Origin: a virus
Lineage: Duplodnaviria; Caudoviricetes
Direction: 5' to 3' (one strand)
Virus record (IMG/VR): IMGVR_UViG_3300045580_000297
Coordinates: 1 to 25,406 of that record
DNA length: 25,406 nucleotides
The notes below the pieces were generated by a model that made no database searches, was not told the DNA's origin, and worked only from the letters and a program-made list of their open reading frames with translations. Every line of letters begins with the position of its first letter. The stretch's first letter is position 1. Positions 1,958 to 21,684 of the stretch are shown in pieces. Both the position numbers and the translations under genes were made by a program.

Positions 1958-2108
1958 GTGTCCAGTGCCCAAAGCGACCCCACCGCACTAGCTGCGGGTG
2001 CTGGACCTCCTCTGTTGGGTTGACGAGGCGTCCCTTGTCTCGCGATGGCGAGGGACAAAAAAAAGGGGTAGGTGCCGCTGGTCCCGGTCACCTACCCCTT
2101 CTTGTTTT
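1958..2108 (+). ncRNA. Putative structured small RNA (about 150 nt)
   Basis: Stems 1961-1970/1996-2005 and 2030-2039/2047-2056 contain G-U pairs that work only on the + strand. It has a candidate promoter and ends at the hairpin 2063-2100. No convincing ORF. Confidence 0.5.
2057..2108. terminator. Intrinsic terminator, probably bidirectional
   Basis: Perfect 12-bp stem AAGGGGTAGGTG (2063-2074)/CACCTACCCCTT (2089-2100). A8 on the left gives a U-tract for the minus strand; CTTGTTTT lies on the right. It sits between convergent units. Confidence 0.85.
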
Positions 2109-2110
2109 CG

Positions 2111-2127: not shown

Positions 2128-2991
2128 TCAGGCCTTGAGGGCCTTCATCTCCTCAGCCAGTGTCCAGAGAGCCCTGTTGAGCTTGATGTCGCCATCGACC
2201 GACTGCACAGCGCGTGTGCTCATGTGGCGGCGAACGCCCGGGTTATCCTTTTCAGTGGCTGTGTAGTTCAAGCCACCCTTGATCAGGTTCTCCTGAGCCC
2301 TGTTGTACACGGTCCAGAGGTCATCGAGGTTGTCGGCCCGCCTCCGGGGGTTCAGGACCTGAAGGGGCCAGAGGTCAGCAGGAACCTCATCGAAGCGAAG
2401 CTGGATGGCTGCCTTCGCAAAGGCACGCTTCTCATCGACGTTGAGTTCGATGGCCTTCATCTGCTCGACTTGGTCGATGACCTCATCAGAGTGCTGGAGC
2501 ACCTCGTATGAGCCCTCGATCACCTTGTCGATGGCGTTCGAGCGGTGAGGCACCTTCACATCACCGAAGAGGCTCTCGCTGACCACGAGGCCGTTCAGGC
2601 AGACCAGCCGGAACAGGCCCATCATCAGGTGATACTGGCTCGTGCCATCGTGGGCGTTCTTCAGGACCACCTCAGGGAAGGTGTCGCCCACTGACTTGAC
2701 GTTGTTCTCGCGGCGAAGGCGGATCATGTGCTTGGTGAAGGCACGCTTCTCAGCATCCTTCGATCCGCCCACCGACACGCCAGTGACCCTGAAGCCCTCC
2801 TTCATCAGTGCACCGAGCATCTCGTGGGTCGGGATGTGCACGAACCGCTCTGAGCGAGAGCTATGGGGCTCCTCAGCGAAGATGGCCGGGGCATGTGCCC
2901 GGATGGTGTCGAGGTCGAGGAACTCGCCCGGGCGAGCCTGAAGACGCACGGCACCACGGCCAAAGACGGAAGCGCGGTTGATCATGTTCAT
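2128..2991 (-). CDS. DUF932 (DUF945; YafZ/YfjQ-like) family protein
   Basis: APAIFAEEPHSSRSERFVHIPT...FTKHMIRLRR...PEVVLKNAHDGTSQYHLMMGLFRLVCLNGLVV...DLWTVYNRAQENLIKGG...DIKLNRALWTLAE. Start set at 2991 (AAGGAG RBS); the ORF-track extension runs through a ribozyme. Confidence 0.92.
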   Translation of the reverse strand: MNMINRASVFGRGAVRLQARPGEFLDLDTIRAHAPAIFAEEPHSSRSERFVHIPTHEMLGALMKEGFRVTGVSVGGSKDAEKRAFTKHMIRLRRENNVKSVGDTFPEVVLKNAHDGTSQYHLMMGLFRLVCLNGLVVSESLFGDVKVPHRSNAIDKVIEGSYEVLQHSDEVIDQVEQMKAIELNVDEKRAFAKAAIQLRFDEVPADLWPLQVLNPRRRADNLDDLWTVYNRAQENLIKGGLNYTATEKDNPGVRRHMSTRAVQSVDGDIKLNRALWTLAEEMKALKA

Positions 2992-3009: not shown

Positions 3010-3061
3010 GATCTCATCAGCACTGGCCTCACCAGTGGACCGCCTCACGGCGGTTTCGATC
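3010..3061 (-). ncRNA. Type II hammerhead ribozyme HH1
   Basis: Minus strand: GAUC-GAAA-C-CGCC-GUGA-GGCG-GUC^-CACUGG-UGAGG-CCAGUG-CUGAUGA-GAUC. Complete core and all three stems paired. Predicted cut between 3038 and 3037. Confidence 0.95.
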
Positions 3062-3065
3062 TGCA

Positions 3066-3464
3066 TCACTTGATCCGCATCACCTCGACGTAGTTGCCGC
3101 TGGTGGCGCTGGTCATGAAGGACCCCGGCCCCCAGTATCGCGTGCACCATGCCGTGATGCCGCCTGAGAGGTTGTCCTTCTTGAACTTGTCGAGGGGCAC
3201 CTGAGCCACCTCCCCGGGCTTCAGGCCCTCGATGAGGGGCACGAAGTAGGCCATCTGCTCACCCTTCTTGAAGATGGGCCCGCTGCGCTTTTTCTCAGGA
3301 GCGGCTGCGAGGTATTCTGTGAAGGTCTGCTGCTTCTGCACCTCAGGCCTGTTCGAGTGAATGCGGCCATCTGGGGCCACGATCTCGAACTCGCAGCCCA
3401 TGTTGTGGAGGATGGTCGTGCAACGTTCCATCCAGTCGAGTTGAAGCTTCGATACGGTCTTCAT
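3066..3464 (-). CDS. Hypothetical phage protein (132 aa)
   Basis: GAGG RBS, phage-like codon usage, stop 4 nt before HH1. Confidence 0.8.
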   Translation of the reverse strand: MKTVSKLQLDWMERCTTILHNMGCEFEIVAPDGRIHSNRPEVQKQQTFTEYLAAAPEKKRSGPIFKKGEQMAYFVPLIEGLKPGEVAQVPLDKFKKDNLSGGITAWCTRYWGPGSFMTSATSGNYVEVMRIK

Positions 3465-3471
3465 GTGGTCC

Positions 3472-3660
3472 TCACTTCGGGTTGTCGATGTCGAGTTGAG
3501 CCTGACGCTTCAGCACCTCAGCGCATGCCCTAACACTCAGGCACGCCTCGAAGGCCTCGTTCGCCTTGCCTTCCTTGAAGGCTGCTTCGACGGTGTCGGT
3601 GAACTCCCTCATCATGGCGATGATGTTCGAGGCCTTCACCTTGCTATCAATAGACGCCAT
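3472..3660 (-). CDS. Small hypothetical protein (62 aa, MASIDSKVK...)
   Basis: Strong AGGAGG RBS upstream of the ATG at 3660; overlaps the end of the upstream gene. Confidence 0.75.
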   Translation of the reverse strand: MASIDSKVKASNIIAMMREFTDTVEAAFKEGKANEAFEACLSVRACAEVLKRQAQLDIDNPK

Positions 3661-3940
3661 GTGCGCCCTCCTGTTCGATGTGGTCGATCTTTGCAGTCTC
3701 GCGTTCAGCGAAGCTGATCCAGTAGTCGATGCGGTCCTCCTCAGCGAGGAAGATGCCAAGCTGGCGCTGAGCACGCTTCAGGATGCGGCCCCACACCATC
3801 AGTGAGTTCAGGTTGGCGCGGGTCCGAAGCTCCCGGTCATCCTTGTCGATGATCTCATGGTAGGCATTGTAGGCCACCGCGAGGTCACGGATGTCATCCG
3901 TCATGACGGTGACTTCCTTGTTCACTGGCATTTCGATCAT
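3647..3940 (-). CDS. Hypothetical protein (97 aa)
   Basis: AAGGAG RBS directly after HH2; phage-like codon usage. Confidence 0.8.
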   Translation of the reverse strand: MIEMPVNKEVTVMTDDIRDLAVAYNAYHEIIDKDDRELRTRANLNSLMVWGRILKRAQRQLGIFLAEEDRIDYWISFAERETAKIDHIEQEGAHGVY

Positions 3941-3957
3941 GCTGATCTCCTTGGGTT

Positions 3958-4009
3958 GATCTCATCAGTGCCAGCCTTACTGGCAGACCCCTTTGCAGGG
4001 GTTTCGATC
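3958..4009 (-). ncRNA. Type II hammerhead ribozyme HH2
   Basis: Minus strand: GAUC-GAAA-C-CCCU-GCAA-AGGG-GUC^-UGCCAG-UAAGG-CUGGCA-CUGAUGA-GAUC. Predicted cut between 3986 and 3985. Confidence 0.95.
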
Positions 4010-4257
4010 TAGAAGGGGATTTCAGGGTCGAAGTGGATGTTGGCCTTGGGCCTCACCTGTTGGGCGTAGACCTGTTTGCCGTTATCGTCGATCACCTCGA
4101 AGTCGATGTCGTAGAAGCCTTCGCTGGCTGCCATCATGCTGGCCAGCTTCAGTGCGTAGGCGGCAGTCATGATGCCGTCCCGTTCGAGGCGGCATATTGA
4201 GCGGGGGTCGCAGGGGCTGGTGCCTTCATAAGGCATGCGGGAAATGATGCGGTACAT
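4009..4257 (-). CDS. Small hypothetical protein (82 aa, MYRIISR...FDPEIPF)
   Basis: The RBS GAGGAG is supplied by the HH3 core. The TAG stop overlaps the first base of HH2. Confidence 0.75.
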   Translation of the reverse strand: MYRIISRMPYEGTSPCDPRSICRLERDGIMTAAYALKLASMMAASEGFYDIDFEVIDDNGKQVYAQQVRPKANIHFDPEIPF

Positions 4258-4260
4258 GTT

Positions 4261-4312
4261 GATCTCCTCAGTGCGGGCTTGACCCGCAGACCCTCTCACG
4301 AGGGTTTCGATC
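4261..4312 (-). ncRNA. Type II hammerhead ribozyme HH3
   Basis: Minus strand: GAUC-GAAA-C-CCUC-GUGA-GAGG-GUC^-UGCGGG-UCAAG-CCCGCA-CUGAGGA-GAUC. Predicted cut between 4289 and 4288. Confidence 0.93.
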
Positions 4313-4324
4313 TGTCCGTCCTTC
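4312..4324. repeat. 13-bp inverted repeat, right arm (CTGTCCGTCCTTC)
   Basis: Reverse complement of 2111-2123. Confidence 0.75.
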
Positions 4325-4340: not shown

Positions 4341-4358
4341 GCACCTTTCGGTCCTCCT

Positions 4359-4387: not shown

Positions 4388-4469
4388 CGGGCTCTCACGC
4401 ATGGCAGCCATGCACTGGGAACATGACTATTCGCAGGGAAGGCTCAGGACGGGCAAGTCCGTTCCCCCT

Positions 4470-4517
4470 ATGCCACCTACCGGCCCCCTCGTTCGAGGGC
4501 CCTCAGCGGCCTTCCTA
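4470..4517. repeat. Bipartite intergenic motif, copy 2 (ATGCCACCTACCGG-N23-CGGCCTTCCTA)
   Basis: Direct repeat of 1846-1891. Confidence 0.75.
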
Positions 4518-4606
4518 TTGGGTGTTAAAATACGCTTTGCGCTTCAGGTACTTATGCGAGGCAAGAAAAATCGACATCATGGCTGGTATGCAAAGAAAAC
4601 ATAGCC

Positions 4607-4677: not shown

Positions 4678-5106
4678 ATGACCACGTTCGAGCTTTTCGA
4701 GGGAGCCATCCCCGACATGTCCAAGATGGCAAAGATTGCGGTGGAACGAGAGATCAAGGGTAGGCCCGACTACTGCTGCATCAAGCGGGACTTGGCCATC
4801 AAGGCCATCGAGGACTACCGCGAGGCATACATCCAGACCAGTGACTATTCGGACCAGTGGGGCTCGAACGCTTGCATCTGGGCGAACGGTGGCCTTCTTG
4901 GCCTTCCGAACCTCGACCCCCCTCTTGCTCTTTCTGGCCTTCGGGCCGTCCTGAACTGGCGGCAACGCGAGCTTCCTGCTGAGGAGTTCGACCGCTGGAT
5001 GAGGCATGTGGTGAAGGTGCTGAAGCCCATCAACGCGATGGCTGAGATCGACACCGAAGTGCTGAAGACTGAACGTGGCCTTTCTGACAAGGACTTCCAG
5101 AGATGA
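4678..5106 (+). CDS. Hypothetical protein (142 aa)
   Basis: GGAGGAG RBS upstream of the ATG at 4678. The ORF-track extension to 4378 runs through regulatory DNA. Confidence 0.75.
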   Translation: MTTFELFEGAIPDMSKMAKIAVEREIKGRPDYCCIKRDLAIKAIEDYREAYIQTSDYSDQWGSNACIWANGGLLGLPNLDPPLALSGLRAVLNWRQRELPAEEFDRWMRHVVKVLKPINAMAEIDTEVLKTERGLSDKDFQR

Positions 5107-5489
5107 CTGAAGATGACATCAAGGTAAAGATGGCTGAAATTCTCACGGCACTGGGAAAGAAGGTGACACCTGAGGAGCTTGCAGACATGCAGGTCACCCT
5201 CGTGGACAAGAGCACCGACATCACCGTCAGCGAGGATGAGTTCTATCGCCGCATCAAGGAAGGCGGGCCCTTCATCAAGCACATGGAAAAGTGCGGGGCG
5301 CACCTTCAGTCCCTCGTTGATTGCCTCGCGGCAGACATGAAGAGGATCGTCTGCATAGATGACCCCGTCGAGCGCGAGGAACAGGCCTTCTCTGGCCTCG
5401 CTGAGTTCTTCGAGACGGTGAAGGTCTACCACGATGTGGTGACTGGCCGCTCCCCACGGAAAGGGGGTGCATCGTACACATTGAACTGA
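5103..5489 (+). CDS. Hypothetical protein (128 aa)
   Basis: ATGA coupling with the upstream gene; typical codon usage. Confidence 0.8.
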   Translation: MTEDDIKVKMAEILTALGKKVTPEELADMQVTLVDKSTDITVSEDEFYRRIKEGGPFIKHMEKCGAHLQSLVDCLAADMKRIVCIDDPVEREEQAFSGLAEFFETVKVYHDVVTGRSPRKGGASYTLN

Positions 5490-5496
5490 TCAGCCC

Positions 5497-5604
5497 CCGA
5501 CAGGGTCCCCTCCTCCCTACCTGTCGGTAACTGAAGAGCCTGATCCCGGTTTTATGGCTGAAACACCCACAGCCGAAACTCACAACGGGGTCAGGCTTTT
5601 CTTC
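5497..5604 (+). ncRNA. Two-hairpin RNA element: CCUCCUCCC-loop hairpin (cuckoo-like) plus a long terminator-like hairpin
   Basis: CCGACAGG (5497-5504)/CCTGTCGG (5520-5527) encloses CCTCCTCCC (5509-5517). A 16-bp stem 5533-5548/5586-5601 ends in TTTTCTT. Confidence 0.5.
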
Positions 5605-5798: not shown

Positions 5799-6015
5799 CC
5801 AGATACCGGATGAGGTGGTGGAGGCGGCTGCGAGGGCCGCTTGGAAGCTAAAGGACCAAAGGCTCTGGGAGACACTCAAAGCCACACAACCCAACTGGAG
5901 GGATGAAGCACGCGAAGCTCTCGCCGCCGCATTGAATGCGTGGCCGGGGGCGTTCTTGTACCCATTGAACAAGACCCGCCTCATCCTCCCCCTGCCGCAG
6001 AATGACCAAGACTGA
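5785..6015 (+). CDS. Hypothetical phage protein (IPDEVVEAAARA...WRDEAREALAAA type)
   Basis: GAGG RBS; motif is common in small phage proteins. Confidence 0.7.
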   Translation: MIKPDQIPDEVVEAAARAAWKLKDQRLWETLKATQPNWRDEAREALAAALNAWPGAFLYPLNKTRLILPLPQNDQD

Positions 6016-6089: not shown

Positions 6090-6479
6090 GTGGCAGCGCC
6101 TCCTTCCAAGATAAAGAACCCTCAGGCCATCAGGCACTCAGATGAAACCCGCATGCGTATATCAGCAAGCAGGATCATCGACCGTGTACAGAAGTACGTC
6201 CTCTCAAGGCCTGTGACCGTCATCGACACCAACTCAGGCACAGTGCGCGTGAGGTTCGAGGACGAAGAAGGCAACGAAGTCCCCGCCATGACGCCTGACC
6301 AGATGAGGGGAGCAAAGCTCCTTCTGGACAAGGCCCTACCCAACCTCCAGACAGTTGAGGTTAACAAAGAAGAAACAAAGACTTACGTATTACGAGCGCC
6401 AGAGCCCGAGCAAAATACTCAGGATTGGCTGAGGAAATACGGGCCCAAGACCATAGAAGCGAAGCCAGAGAAGGCCTGA
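6090..6479 (+). CDS. terS: Terminase small subunit (putative)
   Basis: Directly upstream of TerL with a TGATG overlap. RISASRIIDRVQKYVL...MTPDQMRGAKLLLDKALPNL pattern is seen in podoviral TerS-position genes. Confidence 0.7.
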   Translation: MAAPPSKIKNPQAIRHSDETRMRISASRIIDRVQKYVLSRPVTVIDTNSGTVRVRFEDEEGNEVPAMTPDQMRGAKLLLDKALPNLQTVEVNKEETKTYVLRAPEPEQNTQDWLRKYGPKTIEAKPEKA

Positions 6480-7921
6480 TGACCTTCGAGACCATATGGC
6501 AGCCTCAGCCCGGGCCACAGACGGCCCTCCTCACATGCCCCATCAACGAAGTCTGCTATGGAGGCGCACGAGGGGGAGGGAAGACAGACGGTGTTCTGGG
6601 TGAGTGGGCCAGCCATGCTGCTGAATACGGCCAGAACGCCATAGGCCTGATGGTACGCCGCCAGCGCACGGAACTCATCGAGACCATGGAGCGCAGCAAG
6701 GTGCTCTACAGGCCACTGGGGGCCACCTTCAACGAAAGCAGCAAGATGTGGCTCTTCCCAAATGGAGCCCGTCTGCGCTTCGCCTACCTCGAACGCGACA
6801 GTGATGCGAACGGGTATCAGGGCCACTCATACACAAGGGTCTACATCGAGGAGGCCGGGAACTTCCCGGTCCCCACGCCCATCTTCAAGCTCATGGGCAC
6901 CCTTCGATCAGGTGCTGGCGTGCCATGCCGCATGATCCTCACATGCAACCCCGGTGGGCCCGGGCACCAGTGGGTGAAGGCACGCTACATCGACCCCGCA
7001 CCCATGGGGTACAAGCCCATCGAGGACACCTTCGTGAACCCTTGGACGCACGAGAAAGTCGTCCGTTCACGGATATTCATCCCGAGCTTCGTCACCGACA
7101 ATAAGTTCCTTGGCACCGACTACGTGGCCATCCTGCAACAGGTGGGCAACGACAACCTCGTGAAGGCATGGCTCCTTGGCGACTGGAACATCGTGGAAGG
7201 GGCCTTCTTCGACCGCTGGACGCATCACAACATCGTGCGGCCCTTCGAGATACCGCAGGACTGGCTGCGCTTCAGGGCTGCTGACTGGGGCTTCAGTGCG
7301 CCCTTCTCGATGGGCTGGTATGCCGTTGCTGGCGATGACGCTGGCGACTACGGGCTCCAGAAAGGATGCCTCGTGCGGTATCGGGAGTTGTACACGGTCA
7401 AACCGGGGCAACCGAATGTTGGACTTCGTCTGACTACGGAAGAATTAGCTGAGCGCATCAAGGAGATGAGCCGTGGGGAAAAATACGCATATTCCGTCAT
7501 CGACCCTGCCGCCTTTGCCGAGTCTGGGGGGCCATCTATCGCTGAGCGTTTTGCTCGTGCTGGCGTGGAGTTCAAGCGCGGTGACAATAGGCGCTTGGGC
7601 GCTCGCGGCGCAATGGGTGGCTGGGACATGGTTCGTGCACGGATCATCGGGCAAGATGACAAACCAATGTTTGTCACGTTTTCGACCTGTACGGAATTGA
7701 TCCGTACACTGCCTGTTCTTCAGCATGACCCAGATAGGCCGGAAGACCTTGACACCTCACAAGAAGATCACGCCGCCGACGAGCTTCGGTATGCCGTGAT
7801 GTCCCGCCCGTGGGTGCCAAACAAGGACAGAAGCAAGGAGCCGGGGAGGACCATTCATCAAATGACATTAAATGAAGCTTGGTCTATGCTCCGCGAGCCT
7901 GTCAGGGAGGGAAGAATATGA
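6479..7921 (+). CDS. terL: Terminase large subunit
   Basis: Walker A YGGARGGGKT, Walker B VYIEEA, TCNPGGPGHQWVK, nuclease motifs AADWGFSAPFS and EDHAADELRYA. Confidence 0.97.
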   Translation: MTFETIWQPQPGPQTALLTCPINEVCYGGARGGGKTDGVLGEWASHAAEYGQNAIGLMVRRQRTELIETMERSKVLYRPLGATFNESSKMWLFPNGARLRFAYLERDSDANGYQGHSYTRVYIEEAGNFPVPTPIFKLMGTLRSGAGVPCRMILTCNPGGPGHQWVKARYIDPAPMGYKPIEDTFVNPWTHEKVVRSRIFIPSFVTDNKFLGTDYVAILQQVGNDNLVKAWLLGDWNIVEGAFFDRWTHHNIVRPFEIPQDWLRFRAADWGFSAPFSMGWYAVAGDDAGDYGLQKGCLVRYRELYTVKPGQPNVGLRLTTEELAERIKEMSRGEKYAYSVIDPAAFAESGGPSIAERFARAGVEFKRGDNRRLGARGAMGGWDMVRARIIGQDDKPMFVTFSTCTELIRTLPVLQHDPDRPEDLDTSQEDHAADELRYAVMSRPWVPNKDRSKEPGRTIHQMTLNEAWSMLREPVREGRI

Positions 7922-8352
7922 AACGCTTCGAGGATAAGGTGCTCAAGGGCGAGGGGTGCTGGCGGTGGAGCGCAGCAAAGCTCCCCACTGGCTATGGCAT
8001 TTTCAGGCTCAACGGGCGGAACCATTACGCTCATCGCCTCGCGTATGAGCTTTGGGTTGGCGAGATCAGCAAGGGCATGTTCGTGTGCCACAGGTGTGAC
8101 AACCCGTCATGCGTTCGCCCTGACCACCTCTTCCTTGGCACGAACAGGGACAACATAGCTGACAGGACAGCGAAGGGGCGCAGCCATAGGCCAATAGGGG
8201 AGAGAAACCCGAAGGCAAAGCTTAGTAGTGAAGACGTTGCAGCAATACGAAGTGACACAGGGCGTTCGAGTGACATAGCCAAGAAGTATGGCATCGCTCC
8301 AGACACAGTGCGTCACATCAGAAACCGCAGGATATGGAGACATCTGCAATGA
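7918..8352 (+). CDS. HNH homing endonuclease (HNH_3-type with C-terminal HTH)
   Basis: CWRW...YAHRLAYEL...VCHRCDNPSCVRPDHLFLGTNRDNIAD...AKLSSEDVAAIR; ATGA overlaps at both ends. Confidence 0.95.
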   Translation: MKRFEDKVLKGEGCWRWSAAKLPTGYGIFRLNGRNHYAHRLAYELWVGEISKGMFVCHRCDNPSCVRPDHLFLGTNRDNIADRTAKGRSHRPIGERNPKAKLSSEDVAAIRSDTGRSSDIAKKYGIAPDTVRHIRNRRIWRHLQ

Positions 8353-9692
8353 CTTCGAGCTTCATAAACACCTTCGCGTCCCCGGGTGACAGCGACTACC
8401 TCGCATCGAACGAGATCAGCGAGGACGGCAGGACGAAGCACCTCCAGCGCATCATCATCGAGGGCCACAGCCCCAACAGCACACAGCTTGATGCCTTCGG
8501 GCGTCTTCGTGTGTCGAACCCTCAGGTCCTTGGCTTCAGCAGCTTCGAGTATGCCCTGAACACGCTGACCATGGAGACGGCAGTGAATGGCTCAGGTGCG
8601 GTGGCCAGTCTGCCGAACGAAAGCTCGATCTCCCTCACCAACGGTGGCGGCACGAGCGGGCACTATGCCTATGCCCAGACCCGTGTGCACCATCGGTACG
8701 TGCCCGGGCGCAGCCAGCTTGTGCGCTTCACGGGCTCCTTCGGCACGCCAACTGCGAACGTGCGCCAGAGGGCAGGGTACTTCAACGACAGGAACGGCCT
8801 GTTCCTTGAGTACGATGGCACGACCCTCTACTTCGTGCGCCGCACCTACACGAGCGGTGCTGCCGTGGACACACGCATCGCAAGGTCTGCATGGTCTGAC
8901 CCCCTCGATGGCACTGGCGTGTCAGGCATCAACCTCGACCTCACCAAGACATGGTTGTGCTGGATCGACATGGAATGGCTTGGTGTGGGTCGGTATCGCT
9001 TCGGCTTCGCAAGCCCCACCACTGGCGAGCTTGTCACGTGCTACGCTGCTGCTGGCACGAACGTGCTCTCAGTGCCCTACATGACAACGGCATCCCTGCC
9101 CGTGCGCTTCGAGATACAGAACACTGGCGCAGCATCGAGCCTGACCATGAAGTGGATATGCTATGCCGTGGACACCGAGGGCGGTGATGAGGGTGATCTC
9201 CCCATCCAGAACGCCATCGACAGCGGCACCACTGCCACGGCCCTAGCCAGCGGCTCATACAGGCCCATCCTTGCCATCAGGGCCGACACTGTCGTGAGCG
9301 GCGGATCAGTGCCGAACAGGGGCCAGATCATCGTGAAGGGCATCAGCGTTGCGAACGTGGGGAACACGCCCATCAACGTTCAGGTGCGCCTCAATCCCAC
9401 GACACTGACGGCTGCTGGTGGCGCTGTGACATGGGCGAACACAGGTGCCATCAGTGAGAGCGCGGCCTTCACCAATGCTGCTGACACCATCGCTGGCGGA
9501 ACTCTGATCGAAAGCTTCTTCGTCAACGCCACGGCCACAGCAAAGGGCTCAGGCTCTCAGGACTTCTTCATGAAGCTGCCGCTGGTCTACACACAGCTTG
9601 GCAGCATTCAGGACGTTCTCGCCATCTCAGCCGCTGGCCTTGGCGGAACATCGTCAGCACACGCATCAATTACATGGTCGGAGGTCTACTGA
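8349..9692 (+). CDS. Beta-rich, probably virion-associated protein (DAFGRLRVS family)
   Basis: 447 aa, rich in Gly/Thr/Ser/Ala; DAFGRLRVSNP, YVPGRSQL and IDMEWLGVGRYRFGF motifs recur in viral structural hypotheticals. Confidence 0.6.
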   Translation: MTSSFINTFASPGDSDYLASNEISEDGRTKHLQRIIIEGHSPNSTQLDAFGRLRVSNPQVLGFSSFEYALNTLTMETAVNGSGAVASLPNESSISLTNGGGTSGHYAYAQTRVHHRYVPGRSQLVRFTGSFGTPTANVRQRAGYFNDRNGLFLEYDGTTLYFVRRTYTSGAAVDTRIARSAWSDPLDGTGVSGINLDLTKTWLCWIDMEWLGVGRYRFGFASPTTGELVTCYAAAGTNVLSVPYMTTASLPVRFEIQNTGAASSLTMKWICYAVDTEGGDEGDLPIQNAIDSGTTATALASGSYRPILAIRADTVVSGGSVPNRGQIIVKGISVANVGNTPINVQVRLNPTTLTAAGGAVTWANTGAISESAAFTNAADTIAGGTLIESFFVNATATAKGSGSQDFFMKLPLVYTQLGSIQDVLAISAAGLGGTSSAHASITWSEVY

Positions 9693-12457
9693 TGGCACGC
9701 ATCAAGCAGGGGCGCATCTCAGGCCTCCCATCCGTTCCCGTCATCACGCCCGGGCCGACACAGGCAGACATCGACCTCGTTCGAGAGAAAGAGGCCATGG
9801 CCAATGCTGCTCAACGCTACAACGAAATGCAGCGTGAACTCACCACCTACGGGCGAACCCTCGACGATCCACAGGGAAGCTCGTGGACGGGCAACACGGC
9901 TCAGGGCATGGGTCCTATCGCCAGCGCACGCAAGGCCACTGGTGACCTTCCTGAGGGCCCGCAAATGGGCTCCGGGGACCGCAAGAAGGCTGGCAAGTCA
10001 GGGTGGGACAAGAAGCGCGAGAAAGTGGCTGCTGCCATAGACAACAAGTTGCAGGGTGCTGGCAAGGCGGTGGACAAGGTCATCGGCCCGCACGCATCTC
10101 AGGGACTGGGCCGCATCGCTCAGGCTGGCGACATCGCAAAGTACGCCATCCCTGTGGTGGGCGACATGATCGACATCTCCGAGACCGCTCAGGGCCTCGT
10201 GAACAATGCGATGGAGGGTGACTGGCTTGGCATGGCTGGATGGGGTGCCGCTGGTGCTGCTAGCCTCCTGCCAGCCATGTTCATCGGTCCTGCGGCAAAG
10301 AACTTCCCGGTCAAGAACGCTGACGATGCGTATGATCTGCTGAAGCAGGGCGTTGATCCTGAAACCATCCGTGCACGGACGGGTATCATCTTCGACGCAT
10401 CAGGCATCCCGCGCTTCGAGATAGATGACAGCAAGGCACGCCTCACGCCGAAGGGCGAGCGTTTTGCGAAGGGTGCTGCCATCGACAAGCGTTCCCCTCC
10501 CATGCCATTCGATCAGGCCTTCGATCACCCTGAGCTTTTCGAGAACTATCCCCAGATGCGGAACTACATGACCCGCTTCGCTGAGGATGGCGGGCCCGCT
10601 GGTGCGTTCTATCCAGCATGGGGAGGTCAGGGCCCTGAGGTCGAGGCATACGGCTCCTTCGATCAGCCAGCCTTCGGGTACAAGGCACCGAAGAACCTTC
10701 AGCAAGTCATCATGCACGAGGGCCAGCATGCCGTGGACAACATCGAAGATGCTGCCTTCGGCTCGATGCCCGGGACCGTACCGAAGGAGATCAGGGACAA
10801 GTACCCGAACCTGAGCGAGTTCCAGCTTTACAAGCGAGCCGCTGGCGAGACGCTGGCAGACACGACAGCCATGCGTGCGAACCTCGATGCTGACCAGCGC
10901 GGTGCCATCTCTCCCTACCATGGCGTGGGCAGCCAGTACGATGCTCCGTACCAAGAGCAATTCCCACGCTCAGAGCAGTGGGTGGAGCGCAATGATCCCC
11001 GCTTCGCTCCCGAAGAGGGCTACAGCATCATGCACACGGCATACGACCCCTACACGCCTGAGCCCGTCACGCGCATCCTCGCGAACCAGAATGGCGAGGC
11101 ATATGGTGGTGCGTACACGGAGCGTCCTGTCATGGGCTCAGTGCCTGAGGCAGCCCCGAAGAAGAAGAGGATGGGCCCCATCGCCCTTGGCGCTCACCCC
11201 ACGACAGACCCGAACTACATCGCAGCCACGACACTCGCGAACGGTGGCTACAGCGTGAACGTGCCCACGGGCCAGAACCCCACTGATGGCTACATGATGG
11301 GCATGTACGCGAACACGGACCCTCGCAACATGGTTGTCACTGGCAACATGACGCCTGACGATGCCCGTGCCTTCTACGGCACCAACAAGAAGGTGCTTCA
11401 GGGCGAGGACAAGTATTTCGGCACATGGCATAACCCTGACGATGGCAAGACATACCTCGATGTCTCGCGGCGCTTCGGGCCCGACGAAAAGAGGGCTGCC
11501 ACGAAATTCGGTGAGCGCACTGGCCAGCTTGCTGGCTTCGACGTTGCTGCCATGGACAGCTTCCCTGTCGGGAACTGGGAGCAGTTCATAAACTCACCTG
11601 AGTTCATGACACGCATGAACGAGATGGCTGATGAGGGCGGAAAGTTCCTTGGCCAGTACCCCACGAGGCAGTGGTGGAACATGATGGGCACGGACATCGA
11701 GAAGACCTATGGCCCCGTGAACACGCCCTACATGGCTGGCTACACGGCAGCCACGGCACCGAACGCTCAGCCTCGCGAGAACCTCCAGACAGCATCTGAG
11801 TACATGCGCCGCCACATCAAGGGCGAGCCCGTGATCCAGCCTGAGTGGCGTGTGGGCGATGCTGGTGGTCCCCCCATGTCGCGCAAGCCGGGGACGAAGA
11901 TCGGCATGGAAGGCACACGTGTGGACAACCTCGAACGAGCCCGCTCAGGTGGACCATTGGGTGGTCCAAAAGTCGAGAGCGAGCGCAGGGCCATGCTTGG
12001 TGACCCTGATGCCGTTGTCCTTGACCGCTGGCACGCACGCCTTGCTGAGGACCCGAACAGGGGCATCCTCACGGAAGCTCAGGAGGGCACGGTCTCTCGC
12101 GAGAATTACCCGAAGCTCGAAGACAGGTTCAGGCAAGCTGCGGCAGCACGTGGCATGACGCCTCGCGACTTCTCCGCTGATGTGTGGACTGGCGTGCGCG
12201 AGAAGGTCAGGGGCGGTGGCGACCTGTACGGCACGAAGTACAAGCCCTCAGCAGTACGTGGCGAAAGCAAGGCCTACGCTGATGTGTGGACGGACCTCGT
12301 GAAGGAGAAGGCAGCCTTCCTGAAGATCACGCCTCAGGAGATGATGGCCCGCCTCAAATCAGGCGATGCCAACCTTCTCAGCGTCCTGCCCTTCATCCCG
12401 GGTGGCGCTGCCCTTCTCAGGGAGTTCTACGGGCCTCAGGAGCCTGAAGAGCAATGA
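9692..12457 (+). CDS. Large polyvalent protein: LPD23-like domain, HExxH zincin-like peptidase, further domains including an HhH-glycosylase-like C-terminal domain
   Basis: ETIRARTG...RFEIDDSKA...DHPELFENYP (LPD23-like); VIMHEGQHAVD (10715-10729) and YKRAAGE; C-terminal ATAPNAQPRENL...GPKV...VVLDRWHAR...TPRDFSADVW. Coupled by TGATG. Confidence 0.7.
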   Translation: MARIKQGRISGLPSVPVITPGPTQADIDLVREKEAMANAAQRYNEMQRELTTYGRTLDDPQGSSWTGNTAQGMGPIASARKATGDLPEGPQMGSGDRKKAGKSGWDKKREKVAAAIDNKLQGAGKAVDKVIGPHASQGLGRIAQAGDIAKYAIPVVGDMIDISETAQGLVNNAMEGDWLGMAGWGAAGAASLLPAMFIGPAAKNFPVKNADDAYDLLKQGVDPETIRARTGIIFDASGIPRFEIDDSKARLTPKGERFAKGAAIDKRSPPMPFDQAFDHPELFENYPQMRNYMTRFAEDGGPAGAFYPAWGGQGPEVEAYGSFDQPAFGYKAPKNLQQVIMHEGQHAVDNIEDAAFGSMPGTVPKEIRDKYPNLSEFQLYKRAAGETLADTTAMRANLDADQRGAISPYHGVGSQYDAPYQEQFPRSEQWVERNDPRFAPEEGYSIMHTAYDPYTPEPVTRILANQNGEAYGGAYTERPVMGSVPEAAPKKKRMGPIALGAHPTTDPNYIAATTLANGGYSVNVPTGQNPTDGYMMGMYANTDPRNMVVTGNMTPDDARAFYGTNKKVLQGEDKYFGTWHNPDDGKTYLDVSRRFGPDEKRAATKFGERTGQLAGFDVAAMDSFPVGNWEQFINSPEFMTRMNEMADEGGKFLGQYPTRQWWNMMGTDIEKTYGPVNTPYMAGYTAATAPNAQPRENLQTASEYMRRHIKGEPVIQPEWRVGDAGGPPMSRKPGTKIGMEGTRVDNLERARSGGPLGGPKVESERRAMLGDPDAVVLDRWHARLAEDPNRGILTEAQEGTVSRENYPKLEDRFRQAAAARGMTPRDFSADVWTGVREKVRGGGDLYGTKYKPSAVRGESKAYADVWTDLVKEKAAFLKITPQEMMARLKSGDANLLSVLPFIPGGAALLREFYGPQEPEEQ

Positions 12458-20286: not shown

Positions 20287-21684
20287 ATGACACGCCCTAC
20301 ATCGACCCTCTACCAGATGGACTACCAGAACCCTCACGCACAGAACGCCCTCAGGGTTCCCGTCCTCGTTCTCTGCAATACATCAGACGAAAAGCTTCGC
20401 GAGAACATCGCAAAGAACTCAGCACGCCCGGGCAAGTGGGTGTGCGCTCAGCCGCCCTTCGACAAGACGGCCATCCTCGTGGGTGGCGGGCCATCTGTAG
20501 CATACGACATCGAGACCATCAGGGAGATGTCGAAGACGGCCACCATCTTCGCCATGAATGCGGCAGCCACCTTCCTCATCAAGCACGGCATCGTCGTGGA
20601 CTATCAGGTCATCGCTGACGCGAAGCCAGAGACCGTGACGCTGGTCGAGCACGGAGCGATGAACCACCTCTTCGCATCACAGGTCGATCCCATGTGCTTC
20701 ACCATGGAGCCCGGGGCCGTCCTGTGGCACCTCCACATGGAAGGCATGGAGGATGTCTTCCCTCCCGAGCGCGTGAAGGCCGGGGGCTATTCCATCGTGG
20801 GCGGCGGCGCTTCAGTGGGCAACTCAGCATGCGCCCTCGCGTATGTGCTTGGGTACAGGAAGCTGCACCTCTTCGGGTACGACAGCAGCCACAGGGGCGA
20901 TGCCTCTCACGCATATGACCAGCCCATGAACCGCTTCATCCCTGTCATCGACGTTGAGTGGGCGGGGAAGCATTTCAGGTCATCCGTGGCCATGAAGGCT
21001 CAGGCCGAAAAGTTCATGATCACCGGACAGGCCCTGAAGCACTTGGGCTGCGAGATCACCGTGCATGGTGACGGCCTTCTCCCGACCATGTGGAACACGC
21101 CCATCGAGAACGCCACGGAGAAGGACAAGTACAGGCTCATGTGGCAGTGCGATGCCTACCGCGAGCATTCCCCGGGCGAGTACCTCGTGCAGACCTTCAT
21201 CGAGCTTGTGAAGCCTGATGACCTGATCATCGACTTCGGCTGCGGCACTGGCAGGGCTGCGAAGGCCCTGTACGACAAGGGGCACAGGGTCTTCCTGATC
21301 GACTTCGCTGACAACTGCCGCGATGAGGAGGCCATGGACCTCCCCTTCCTCGAATGGGACCTGACCCGCCCCATCCCGGCGAGGGCCCCATATGGTCTGT
21401 GCACGGACGTTATGGAACACATACCGCCTGATGATGTAGAGAAGGTTGTCTCGAACATCATGGAGGCTTCTGAGACGGTCATGTTCCAGATCAGCACGGT
21501 GAAGGATGCCTTCGGTGCCGTTCTGGGTACTGACCTACACCTGACGGTCAAGGACCATGAATGGTGGGGCTCTCTGTTCGAGCGCCTTGGATACGTGATT
21601 AAACAGCAGCAAAAGGGCGATGTGAACTCACTGTTCATCATCACCCGAAAAGGAGATGAAAATGGCAGCATTCGACCCGAGTGA
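20287..21684 (+). CDS. Fusion: DUF115/Maf (MptE-like) domain plus class I SAM-dependent methyltransferase
   Basis: N-terminal AILVGGGPS...IFAMNAA...VIADA...GGASVG...LGYRKLHLFGYDSS; C-terminal IIDFGCGTGRA...CTDVMEHIP...HLTV. Confidence 0.8.
   Translation: MTRPTSTLYQMDYQNPHAQNALRVPVLVLCNTSDEKLRENIAKNSARPGKWVCAQPPFDKTAILVGGGPSVAYDIETIREMSKTATIFAMNAAATFLIKHGIVVDYQVIADAKPETVTLVEHGAMNHLFASQVDPMCFTMEPGAVLWHLHMEGMEDVFPPERVKAGGYSIVGGGASVGNSACALAYVLGYRKLHLFGYDSSHRGDASHAYDQPMNRFIPVIDVEWAGKHFRSSVAMKAQAEKFMITGQALKHLGCEITVHGDGLLPTMWNTPIENATEKDKYRLMWQCDAYREHSPGEYLVQTFIELVKPDDLIIDFGCGTGRAAKALYDKGHRVFLIDFADNCRDEEAMDLPFLEWDLTRPIPARAPYGLCTDVMEHIPPDDVEKVVSNIMEASETVMFQISTVKDAFGAVLGTDLHLTVKDHEWWGSLFERLGYVIKQQQKGDVNSLFIITRKGDENGSIRPE

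What the first reader, a model, noticed from the sequence alone, without database searches (positions are those of the whole stretch)
3010..4312. Operon punctuated by three type II hammerhead ribozymes, each in front of a translation start
Seen: three 52-nt minus-strand elements with identical architecture A-GAUC-GAAA-C-[4-bp stem plus GNRA loop]-GUC-[6-bp stem plus 5-nt loop starting with U]-CUGANGA-GAUC. Stem I and stem III sequences differ between copies but remain fully paired, which indicates selection on structure. Known: this is the hammerhead core open at stem II (type II). A U at position 1.7 and an A just outside a 4-bp stem II match the A-U trans-Hoogsteen contact of fast natural hammerheads. 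Inference: the transcript cuts itself at 4289/4288, 3986/3985 and 3038/3037 into a leader and three mRNAs, each starting with a 5'-OH hairpin and an RBS. This would be a protein-free analogue of RNase III processing of T7 early mRNA. Hammerheads near phage genes are known in general, but their role is not settled.
Basis: partly seen in the sequence, partly recalled or inferred. Interest (0 to 1): 0.92.

Follow-up and report, generated by a model that had tools for sequence, protein, structure and literature searches.

The report
Three hammerhead ribozymes between phage genes
A freshwater phage carries three real hammerhead RNA motifs just ahead of gene starts in one small-gene operon, a layout known since 2011 that likely cuts the message into hairpin-capped pieces; related phages carry a different RNA motif, not matched in Rfam, at two of the same gene junctions.

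Summary
The three type II hammerheads are real: 3 matches against 0 in 100 shuffles, intact cores, Rfam RF02276 hits for two, and 80 of 80 stem cells paired with 9 compensated pairs across five copies. The reading (self-processing of a phage operon) is the published hypothesis of Perreault et al. 2011, who showed such triples cut; this scan has noted the layout on other DNA many times. Cleavage and transcription here were not shown. Additions: the elements belong to a common phage subtype (17-nt stem I with U1.7, A before a 4-bp stem II, no pseudoknot). They sit between an upstream stop (221 of 294) and a Shine-Dalgarno start (114 of 141). In copy 1 the catalytic core is also the Shine-Dalgarno, as in 33 of 48 relatives with G at N7 (9 of 255 without). 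Circularisation is not supported. In the two closest relatives, one hammerhead is kept with a compensated stem II, while a 53-nt covarying motif with no Rfam match (27 distinct copies) fills two of the same junctions in the other phage. That motif, a candidate ribozyme or RNase III site, is the most novel lead.

The parts
4261..4313 (-). Type II hammerhead copy 1; predicted cut 4289/4288; N7 = G, so core G5-G10.1 (4269-4264) reads GAGGAG, the Shine-Dalgarno of the AUG at 4257
   Evidence: SD-in-core statistics; not listed by Rfam at E up to 1
4009..4257 (-). ORF1, 82 aa, no family; its UAG stop (4011-4009) overlaps the A and first G of copy 2 stem II; possible 111-aa form from GTG 4344
3958..4010 (-). 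Type II hammerhead copy 2; predicted cut 3986/3985; followed by AAGGAG and AUG 3940
   Evidence: Rfam RF02276 E 8.9e-4; orthologous copy in L269 before the ORF2 homologue with stem II changed to GGUC/GACC
3647..3940 (-). ORF2, 97 aa, no family; homologues in L269 (35%) and L270 (32%)
3472..3660 (-). ORF3, about 62 aa from ATG 3660, no family (searched from 3654)
   Evidence: read
3066..3464 (-). ORF4, 132 aa, no family; homologue in L270 (31% over 72 aa); stop ends 4 nt before copy 3 stem II
3010..3062 (-). Type II hammerhead copy 3; predicted cut 3038/3037; followed by AAGGAG and AUG 2991
   Evidence: Rfam RF02276 E 3.6e-4
2128..2991 (-). DUF932 (PF06067) gene, 287 aa, last gene of the operon
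   Evidence: Pfam E 3.4e-43
2054..2109 (-). Terminator-like hairpin followed by 8 U, likely 3' end of the operon
   Evidence: inverted repeat I4, fold; not listed by the consensus scan, whose loop limit is 8 nt
4465..4580 (-). Non-coding stretch conserved with L269 (84 of 117 nt) between the operon and the divergent gene at 4678; likely holds the promoter (inferred)
   Evidence: no sigma-70 consensus found on this strand

Best explanation
These are three type II hammerhead motifs placed at gene junctions of a phage small-gene operon, and they likely cut the transcript during synthesis into a short 5' piece and three mRNAs that would each start with a 5'-OH hairpin next to a ribosome-binding site. 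Shown here: the structure, its covariation, the U1.7/A pair, and the stop-ribozyme-Shine-Dalgarno layout. Inferred: because a type II hammerhead is open at stem II, the cut leaves stem III as the 3'-terminal hairpin (with a 2',3'-cyclic phosphate) of the upstream mRNA and stem I as the 5'-terminal hairpin of the downstream mRNA; only 4 bp then hold the pieces, so they part. Each piece (303, 948 and about 988 nt) is thus capped at both ends and insulated from its neighbours, which would give stable, context-independent expression of presumably early genes without a host nuclease, as the synthetic RiboJ does. In copy 1 the parted core strand is itself the ribosome-binding site.
For: Core and stems intact, beyond chance. 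Five-copy alignment with L269: 80 of 80 cells paired, 9 of 16 pairs changed on both sides. A before stem II in 110 of 110, 17-nt stem I plus loop in 108 of 110, U1.7 in 108 of 108, none fixed by the query; A in 152 of 154 when stem II was free. Shine-Dalgarno plus start within 45 nt in 114 of 141 against 984 of 7100 random places. An ORF of 50 aa or more stops within -3..+6 nt of stem II in 221 of 294, against 292 of 8820 random places and 169 of 2940 with shuffled upstream DNA. With G at N7 a start lies within 12 nt in 33 of 48, otherwise 9 of 255; after clustering 29 of 42 against 8 of 238. Three prophage triples cut in vitro and one in E. coli (PMC3088659); 14 of 18 consensus hammerheads tested were active. 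RiboJ raised mRNA about twofold and protein two- to tenfold (PMC6206723, passages).
Against: No cleavage or transcription data for this phage; no promoter consensus on the minus strand. In secondary-structure ensembles stem II is weak: 0.96, 0.88, 0.10 with 10-nt flanks and at most 0.11 with 50-nt flanks; in whole-piece folds the 5' hairpin holds in piece 1 (about 1.0) but only 0.19 and 0.17 in pieces 2 and 3. Folding predicts no gain in RBS accessibility after the cut (mean unpaired 0.40 to 0.43, 0.50 to 0.56, 0.64 to 0.61). The pseudoknot typical of published type II hammerheads is absent. The hammerheads are not needed for DUF932 as such: none by my descriptor in 11 viral and 29 of 30 metagenome DUF932 loci. 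In glmS, self-cleavage leads to decay, not stability (PMC6765202, passage).
Confidence: 0.62

Rival explanations
1. The cut is a translation switch: the folded core hides or competes with the ribosome-binding site, so downstream genes are translated only after cleavage, and ribosomes ending at the upstream stop or loading on the core delay the cut.
For: Copy 1 core is the Shine-Dalgarno; 33 of 48 N7 = G relatives have a start within 12 nt. The ORF1 stop overlaps stem II of copy 2; stops abut stem II in 221 of 294. An in-frame upstream GTG could run ribosomes through copy 1.
Against: Copies 2 and 3 and most relatives have a free-standing RBS behind an A-rich spacer. No predicted accessibility change (tertiary core not modelled). 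Tight packing alone explains the overlap.
Confidence: 0.15
2. The cut limits expression: it triggers decay of the pieces so that early genes are expressed as a short pulse.
For: glmS cleavage leads to degradation (PMC6765202, passage). The 5' hairpin is not favoured in whole-piece folds of pieces 2 and 3.
Against: Both products keep terminal hairpins and a good RBS follows each cut; RiboJ raises expression.
Confidence: 0.12
3. Pieces between two hammerheads re-pair through the identical GAUC stem II, re-form a hammerhead across their own ends and ligate into circular mRNAs.
For: All three stem II are identical, and the two ends of a piece co-fold into a complete hammerhead (-24.6 and -24.3 kcal/mol). 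71 of 101 neighbour pairs could form 4 cross pairs against 1442 of 5000 random pairs.
Against: 20 of 101 neighbour pairs can form at most 2 cross pairs. Neighbours share stem I and III triplets 6-7 times more than chance and stem II 5 times more, so duplication explains the likeness. End-to-end stem II has probability 0.006 and 0.012. Perreault et al. looked for circles and found none (data not shown there).
Confidence: 0.06
4. The elements are inactive repeats kept as hairpin-RBS cassettes or recombination sites.
For: Weak stem II in long context; 4 of 18 consensus hammerheads were inactive in the 2011 tests.
Against: All catalytic residues and the U1.7/A pair are kept while stems I and III change with compensation; stems I and III are identical in only 8 of 101 neighbour pairs each.
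Confidence: 0.05

Closest known systems
Clustered type II hammerheads flanking genes in prophages (Agrobacterium tumefaciens, Azorhizobium caulinodans, Clostridium scindens; Perreault et al. 2011, PMC3088659; read: abstract, sections 6, 17, part 1 of 11, passages; Rfam RF02276)
   Same: Three hammerheads in a row around single genes or short gene blocks of a phage operon; same permutation and core; same proposed role.
   Different: No loop I-tail pseudoknot here; a U1.7/A pair instead. The paper's text that I read does not state the stop-ribozyme-RBS spacing or a Shine-Dalgarno in the core. Its Figure S5 (legend only seen) classes U...A tertiary contacts and may cover this subtype.
Minimal fast hammerhead with U1.7: stem II loop A contact (O'Rourke et al., as described in PMC11875169, passages)
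   Same: Unpaired U seven bases after the cut and an A just outside a 4-bp stem II.
   Different: Here stem II has no loop; the A is the free base 5' of the stem. That paper also has a section heading saying U7 is not essential in its own constructs.
RiboJ synthetic insulator (PMC6206723, passages)
   Same: Hammerhead cut leaves a 5' hairpin ahead of an RBS.
   Different: Synthetic, one per transcript, sTRSV-derived; no upstream mRNA that keeps a 3' hairpin.
RNase III processing of phage T7 early mRNA (site rules: PMC1540722, passages; T7 biology recalled)
   Same: Cuts between early genes that leave 3' hairpins.
   Different: Needs the host enzyme and leaves 5'-phosphate ends (recalled); hammerheads leave 5'-OH and cyclic phosphate.

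Membership tests
Hammerhead ribozyme, type II (RF02276) | Core C3 U4 G5 A6 N7 G8 A9 G12 A13 A14 A15 U16 H17 | tested here: met
   All three copies; consensus as listed in PMC3088659
Hammerhead ribozyme, type II (RF02276) | Stems I and III closed by loops, stem II open, pairs next to the core intact | tested here: met
   80 of 80 cells paired, 9 of 16 pairs compensated
Hammerhead ribozyme, type II (RF02276) | Rfam gathering score of 37 bits | tested here: not met
   36.6 and 35.1 bits; copy 1 not listed. Two elements of the same build in L308 pass at 38.2 and 38.1
Hammerhead ribozyme, type II (RF02276) | Loop I-3' tail pseudoknot of 4 bp or more (majority feature, not universal) | tested here: not met
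   2 bp at most in each copy; 43 of 259 relatives reach 4 bp against 41.3 with swapped tails
Fast natural hammerheads | Stem I-stem II tertiary contact (U1.7 with A beside stem II) | tested here: met
   Sequence level only: 3 of 3 copies; A in 110 of 110 and U1.7 in 108 of 108 relatives; A in 152 of 154
Hammerhead ribozyme, type II (RF02276) | Self-cleavage 3' of C17 | not testable with these tools
   needs in vitro transcription or RNA end mapping
Clustered prophage/phage hammerheads (Perreault 2011) | Several hammerheads on one strand flanking single genes or short blocks in a phage | tested here: met
Circular RNA-forming tandem ribozymes | Ends of the released piece re-form a ligation-competent ribozyme | tested here: inconclusive
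   possible on paper but improbable in folds and not conserved in 20 of 101 neighbour pairs
Known Rfam families (for the second motif in L269/L270) | Match to any of 4227 models, ribozymes included | tested here: not met
   no credible hit
E. coli-type RNase III site (for the second motif) | Helix of 11 bp or more above the cut; AU-rich proximal box | tested here: inconclusive
   about 14 pairs above an asymmetric internal loop meet the length rule; the pairs there are C-G and U-G rich, unlike the proximal box in PMC1540722; the cut register is unknown

The most novel reading that the evidence does not exclude
The gene junction, not the hammerhead, is the conserved thing: in close relatives the junctions before ORF2 and before DUF932 are filled by a 53-nt RNA motif with the same stop-motif-RBS grammar, two mutually exclusive covarying helices and an almost invariant 3' strand. 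It is a new class of self-cleaving ribozyme that stands in for the hammerhead, and the swap between related phages makes the long-open question of what phage ribozymes do directly testable.
Probability: 0.2. Interest if true: 0.85.

Novelty: new member of a known kind. Interest (0 to 1): 0.4.

Why it matters
The role of self-cleaving ribozymes in phages is still called largely elusive (PMC6765202, passage). This locus is one more example of a known layout and is ordinary in that sense. It is useful as a compact test case: three fast-type hammerheads in 1.3 kb, one with the ribosome site inside the core, and related phages that use another RNA device at the same junctions. If that device cuts itself it would be a new ribozyme class; if RNase III cuts it, it would show that the purpose of the hammerheads is the cut itself.

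Tried and rejected
RNA evidence: no RNA holder listed among 10 runs; no evidence either way. DNA contigs of 4 of those runs showed no variant inside the hammerheads; small-share runs were not used to name a habitat. Promoter scan: no minus-strand site. Homologues of the 111-aa form of ORF1: only the window's own protein among 2 candidates, so the start is undecided. Cultured phages: DUF932 relatives at 46% or less; only a 20-nt chance match for copy 3 and none for the second motif. Genome scan for the N7 = G pattern: 111 loci, 16 with a structured element, one a named isolate (Hymenobacter glacieicola, 3-bp stem II, no near start); the Rhizobium, Bosea and Yoonia matches failed the structure filter. 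GAUC as a special palindrome: rejected, 8 of 154 when stem II is free. Circles: see rivals. Second motif in the window or in 98 hammerhead loci: none (one E 0.86 hit). Relaxed patterns added mostly chance matches. A recalled likeness of the second motif to twister and twister-sister loop sequences was not borne out by Rfam; passages of PMC6154101 gave no sequence to test. Supplements of PMC3088659: 11 files searched for four short motifs, no occurrence; 12 files are listed and gapped alignments would hide such words, so the subtype may be in Dataset S1. Literature searches listed no paper on a natural Shine-Dalgarno in a hammerhead core or on the second motif; most were seen as listings only and subscription papers, including the 2015 ribozyme-neighbourhood screen, are not held.

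Full report
Observation. Each has the full hammerhead core in the type II order, a 4-bp stem II, a 6-bp stem III with a GNRA loop and a 6-bp stem I with a 5-nt loop that starts with U. Rfam assigns copies 3 and 2 to Hammerhead_II at 36.6 and 35.1 bits, just under the gathering score of 37; copy 1 is not listed at E up to 1. With two copies from the related contig L269, all 80 stem cells pair and 9 of 16 pairs change on both sides (only five related sequences).

Setting. The window is the whole contig and is a tailed phage: terminase, portal, major head and tail protein families on the plus strand. The best cultured major-capsid match is Bradyrhizobium phage ppBjS10J-1 at 61%; the host is not established. 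The best holders are freshwater metagenomes. The hammerheads punctuate the one minus-strand operon: ORF1 (4257-4009), ORF2-4 (3940-3066) and DUF932 (2991-2128, Pfam E 3.4e-43), closed by a hairpin plus 8 U at 2109-2054. ORF1-4 match no family. That these are early genes is inferred from size and position. No promoter consensus was found on this strand, but 4580-4465 is conserved with L269 (84 of 117 nt).

The subtype is common. A pattern fixing only the core and GAUC gave 125 viral loci; 113 passed my structure filter. Among 110 distinct GAUC elements, 110 have A just 5' of stem II, 108 have 17 nt for stem I plus loop, and all 108 have U at 1.7; none of these was in the query. A pattern that left stem II free gave 132 loci from 4 of 64 parts of the collection, about 2200 stretches by the tool's estimate; 122 passed the filter, and of 154 distinct 17-nt elements 152 have the A while only 8 have GAUC/GAUC. 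The A and U match the contact described for fast minimal hammerheads (PMC11875169, passages). The pseudoknot that Perreault et al. report for most type II elements is absent: 2 bp at most here, and 43 of 259 relatives reach 4 bp against 41.3 with swapped tails.

Grammar. A Shine-Dalgarno plus start follows within 45 nt in 114 of 141 elements (one at a contig edge was dropped), against 984 of 7100 random places. An ORF of at least 50 aa stops within -3 to +6 nt of stem II in 221 of 294 elements with over 300 nt upstream, against 292 of 8820 and 169 of 2940 in two controls. In the window the ORF1 stop overlaps copy 2 and the ORF4 stop ends 4 nt before copy 3. Copy 1 differs: G at N7 makes the core read GAGGAG and the AUG lies 7 nt after A9. 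G at N7 is rare (2 of 294). A dedicated scan gave 59 loci, 57 distinct matches, 48 structured; 33 of 48 have a start within 12 nt, against 9 of 255 without G, and 29 of 42 against 8 of 238 after clustering (kinship is not fully removed). I found this before seeing that earlier notes of this scan report it on other DNA. An in-frame GTG at 4344 with its own GAGGAGG also runs through copy 1; no homologue decides the start.

Mechanism. Shown: structure, covariation, placement. Known for other triples: all ribozymes cut in vitro in three prophages, and the Agrobacterium set cut in E. coli; no spliced or circular product was detected (PMC3088659, section 6). Inferred: a type II cut leaves stem III at the 3' end of the upstream mRNA and stem I at the 5' end of the downstream one, and 4 bp cannot hold them together. 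The pieces would be 303, 948 and about 988 nt, capped at both ends. RiboJ, a synthetic analogue, raises mRNA about twofold and protein two- to tenfold (PMC6206723). Against this: stem II is weak in secondary-structure ensembles (at most 0.11 with 50-nt flanks), the 5' hairpin is disfavoured in whole-piece folds of pieces 2 and 3, no gain in RBS accessibility is predicted after the cut, and glmS shows that a cut can cause decay. Circles are possible on paper but 20 of 101 neighbour pairs cannot cross-pair and duplication explains the shared stem II.

Relatives. Of 30 metagenome and 11 viral DUF932 loci, only L269 had type II elements by my filter. L269 (DUF932 67%) has two, one directly before the ORF2 homologue (35%), with stem II changed to GGUC/GACC. 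L270 (DUF932 65%) has none in the part held. There the ORF2 homologue (32%) and the ORF4-DUF932 junction (ORF4 31%) are preceded by another repeated element. L269 has two full copies of it and only its 3' half before DUF932. Three viral scans (27, 40 and 116 loci) and a hairpin filter gave 27 distinct copies; 26 have a Shine-Dalgarno start within 30 nt and 21 an upstream stop within -3 to +12 nt. On 26 of them 98.4% of 442 cells pair and 9 of 17 pairs are compensated. Its GGG(C) strand can pair either upstream or with the 3' end; one copy found only by the covariance model changes all three positions together, a single event. Rfam has no credible match. It co-occurs with hammerheads in L269 and L308, not in the window or 98 other hammerhead loci. 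This motif meets the 11-bp helix rule but not the AU-rich proximal box of E. coli (PMC1540722), and RNase III would not explain the near-invariant 3' strand. I put about 0.2 on a new ribozyme class, the rest on a host-nuclease site or a stabilising or protein-binding structure.

Verdict. New member of a known kind; interest 0.4, most of it from the core that doubles as a ribosome site and from the unnamed motif that replaces the hammerheads in relatives. Papers seen: PMC3088659 (abstract, sections 6 and 17, first part of 11, passages, supplement search); PMC6765202, PMC10085705, PMC11875169, PMC6154101, PMC1540722, PMC6206723 (passages); all others as listings only.

Noticed in passing
L270 338-390, 646-698, 1121-1175; L269 3515-3567, 3832-3884; L299-L324, L407, L408, L414: A 53-nt structured motif with no Rfam match sits between stop codons and Shine-Dalgarno starts in 27 distinct copies, and fills the junctions that hammerheads fill in the window. 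Two alternative helices covary (L307 696-748).
   Followed up: partly
window 4344-4258 (-): GTG with GAGGAGG upstream reads in frame through hammerhead 1 into ORF1 (111 aa); the Shine-Dalgarno is partly inside a small GGUCC/GGACC hairpin.
   Followed up: partly
window 4517-4469 and 1891-1846 (-): A repeated non-coding element (family D5, extending to a shared 14-mer) lies upstream of the operon and again downstream of its terminator; it is conserved in L269, also twice. Possible promoter or protein-binding site.
   Followed up: no
window 1990-2022 and 5887-5919: 33-nt inverted repeat, 73% complementary, 3864 nt apart, bracketing the operon and the divergent genes.
   Followed up: no
window 5476-5603 (+); L269 1758-1679 (-): Weak matches to alphaproteobacterial anti-Shine-Dalgarno sRNAs: ar14 (E 0.68) in the window and suhB/MmgR (E 6e-4, below gathering) at a similar place in L269.
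   Followed up: no
window 3949-3943 (-): A second GAUC right after the Shine-Dalgarno of ORF2 can replace the normal stem II strand of copy 2 in the lowest-energy fold.
   Followed up: no
L051 (eight elements), L018, L170-L171: Long arrays of type II hammerheads; in L051 seven have a 3-bp stem II and a longer loop I that looks able to pair with the tail, next to one of the 17-nt kind.
   Followed up: no
window 6425-9692 (+): Terminase large subunit gene followed at once by an HNH endonuclease gene and a virion protein gene; no intron was looked for.
   Followed up: no
window 9674-12457 and 20287-21684 (+): A 927-aa protein with LPD23 and DUF7178 domains, and an MptE-like plus methyltransferase fusion, among the virion genes.
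   Followed up: no
L003, L005, L006 about 1870-1970: int-alpA RNA motif upstream of distant DUF932 genes.
   Followed up: no
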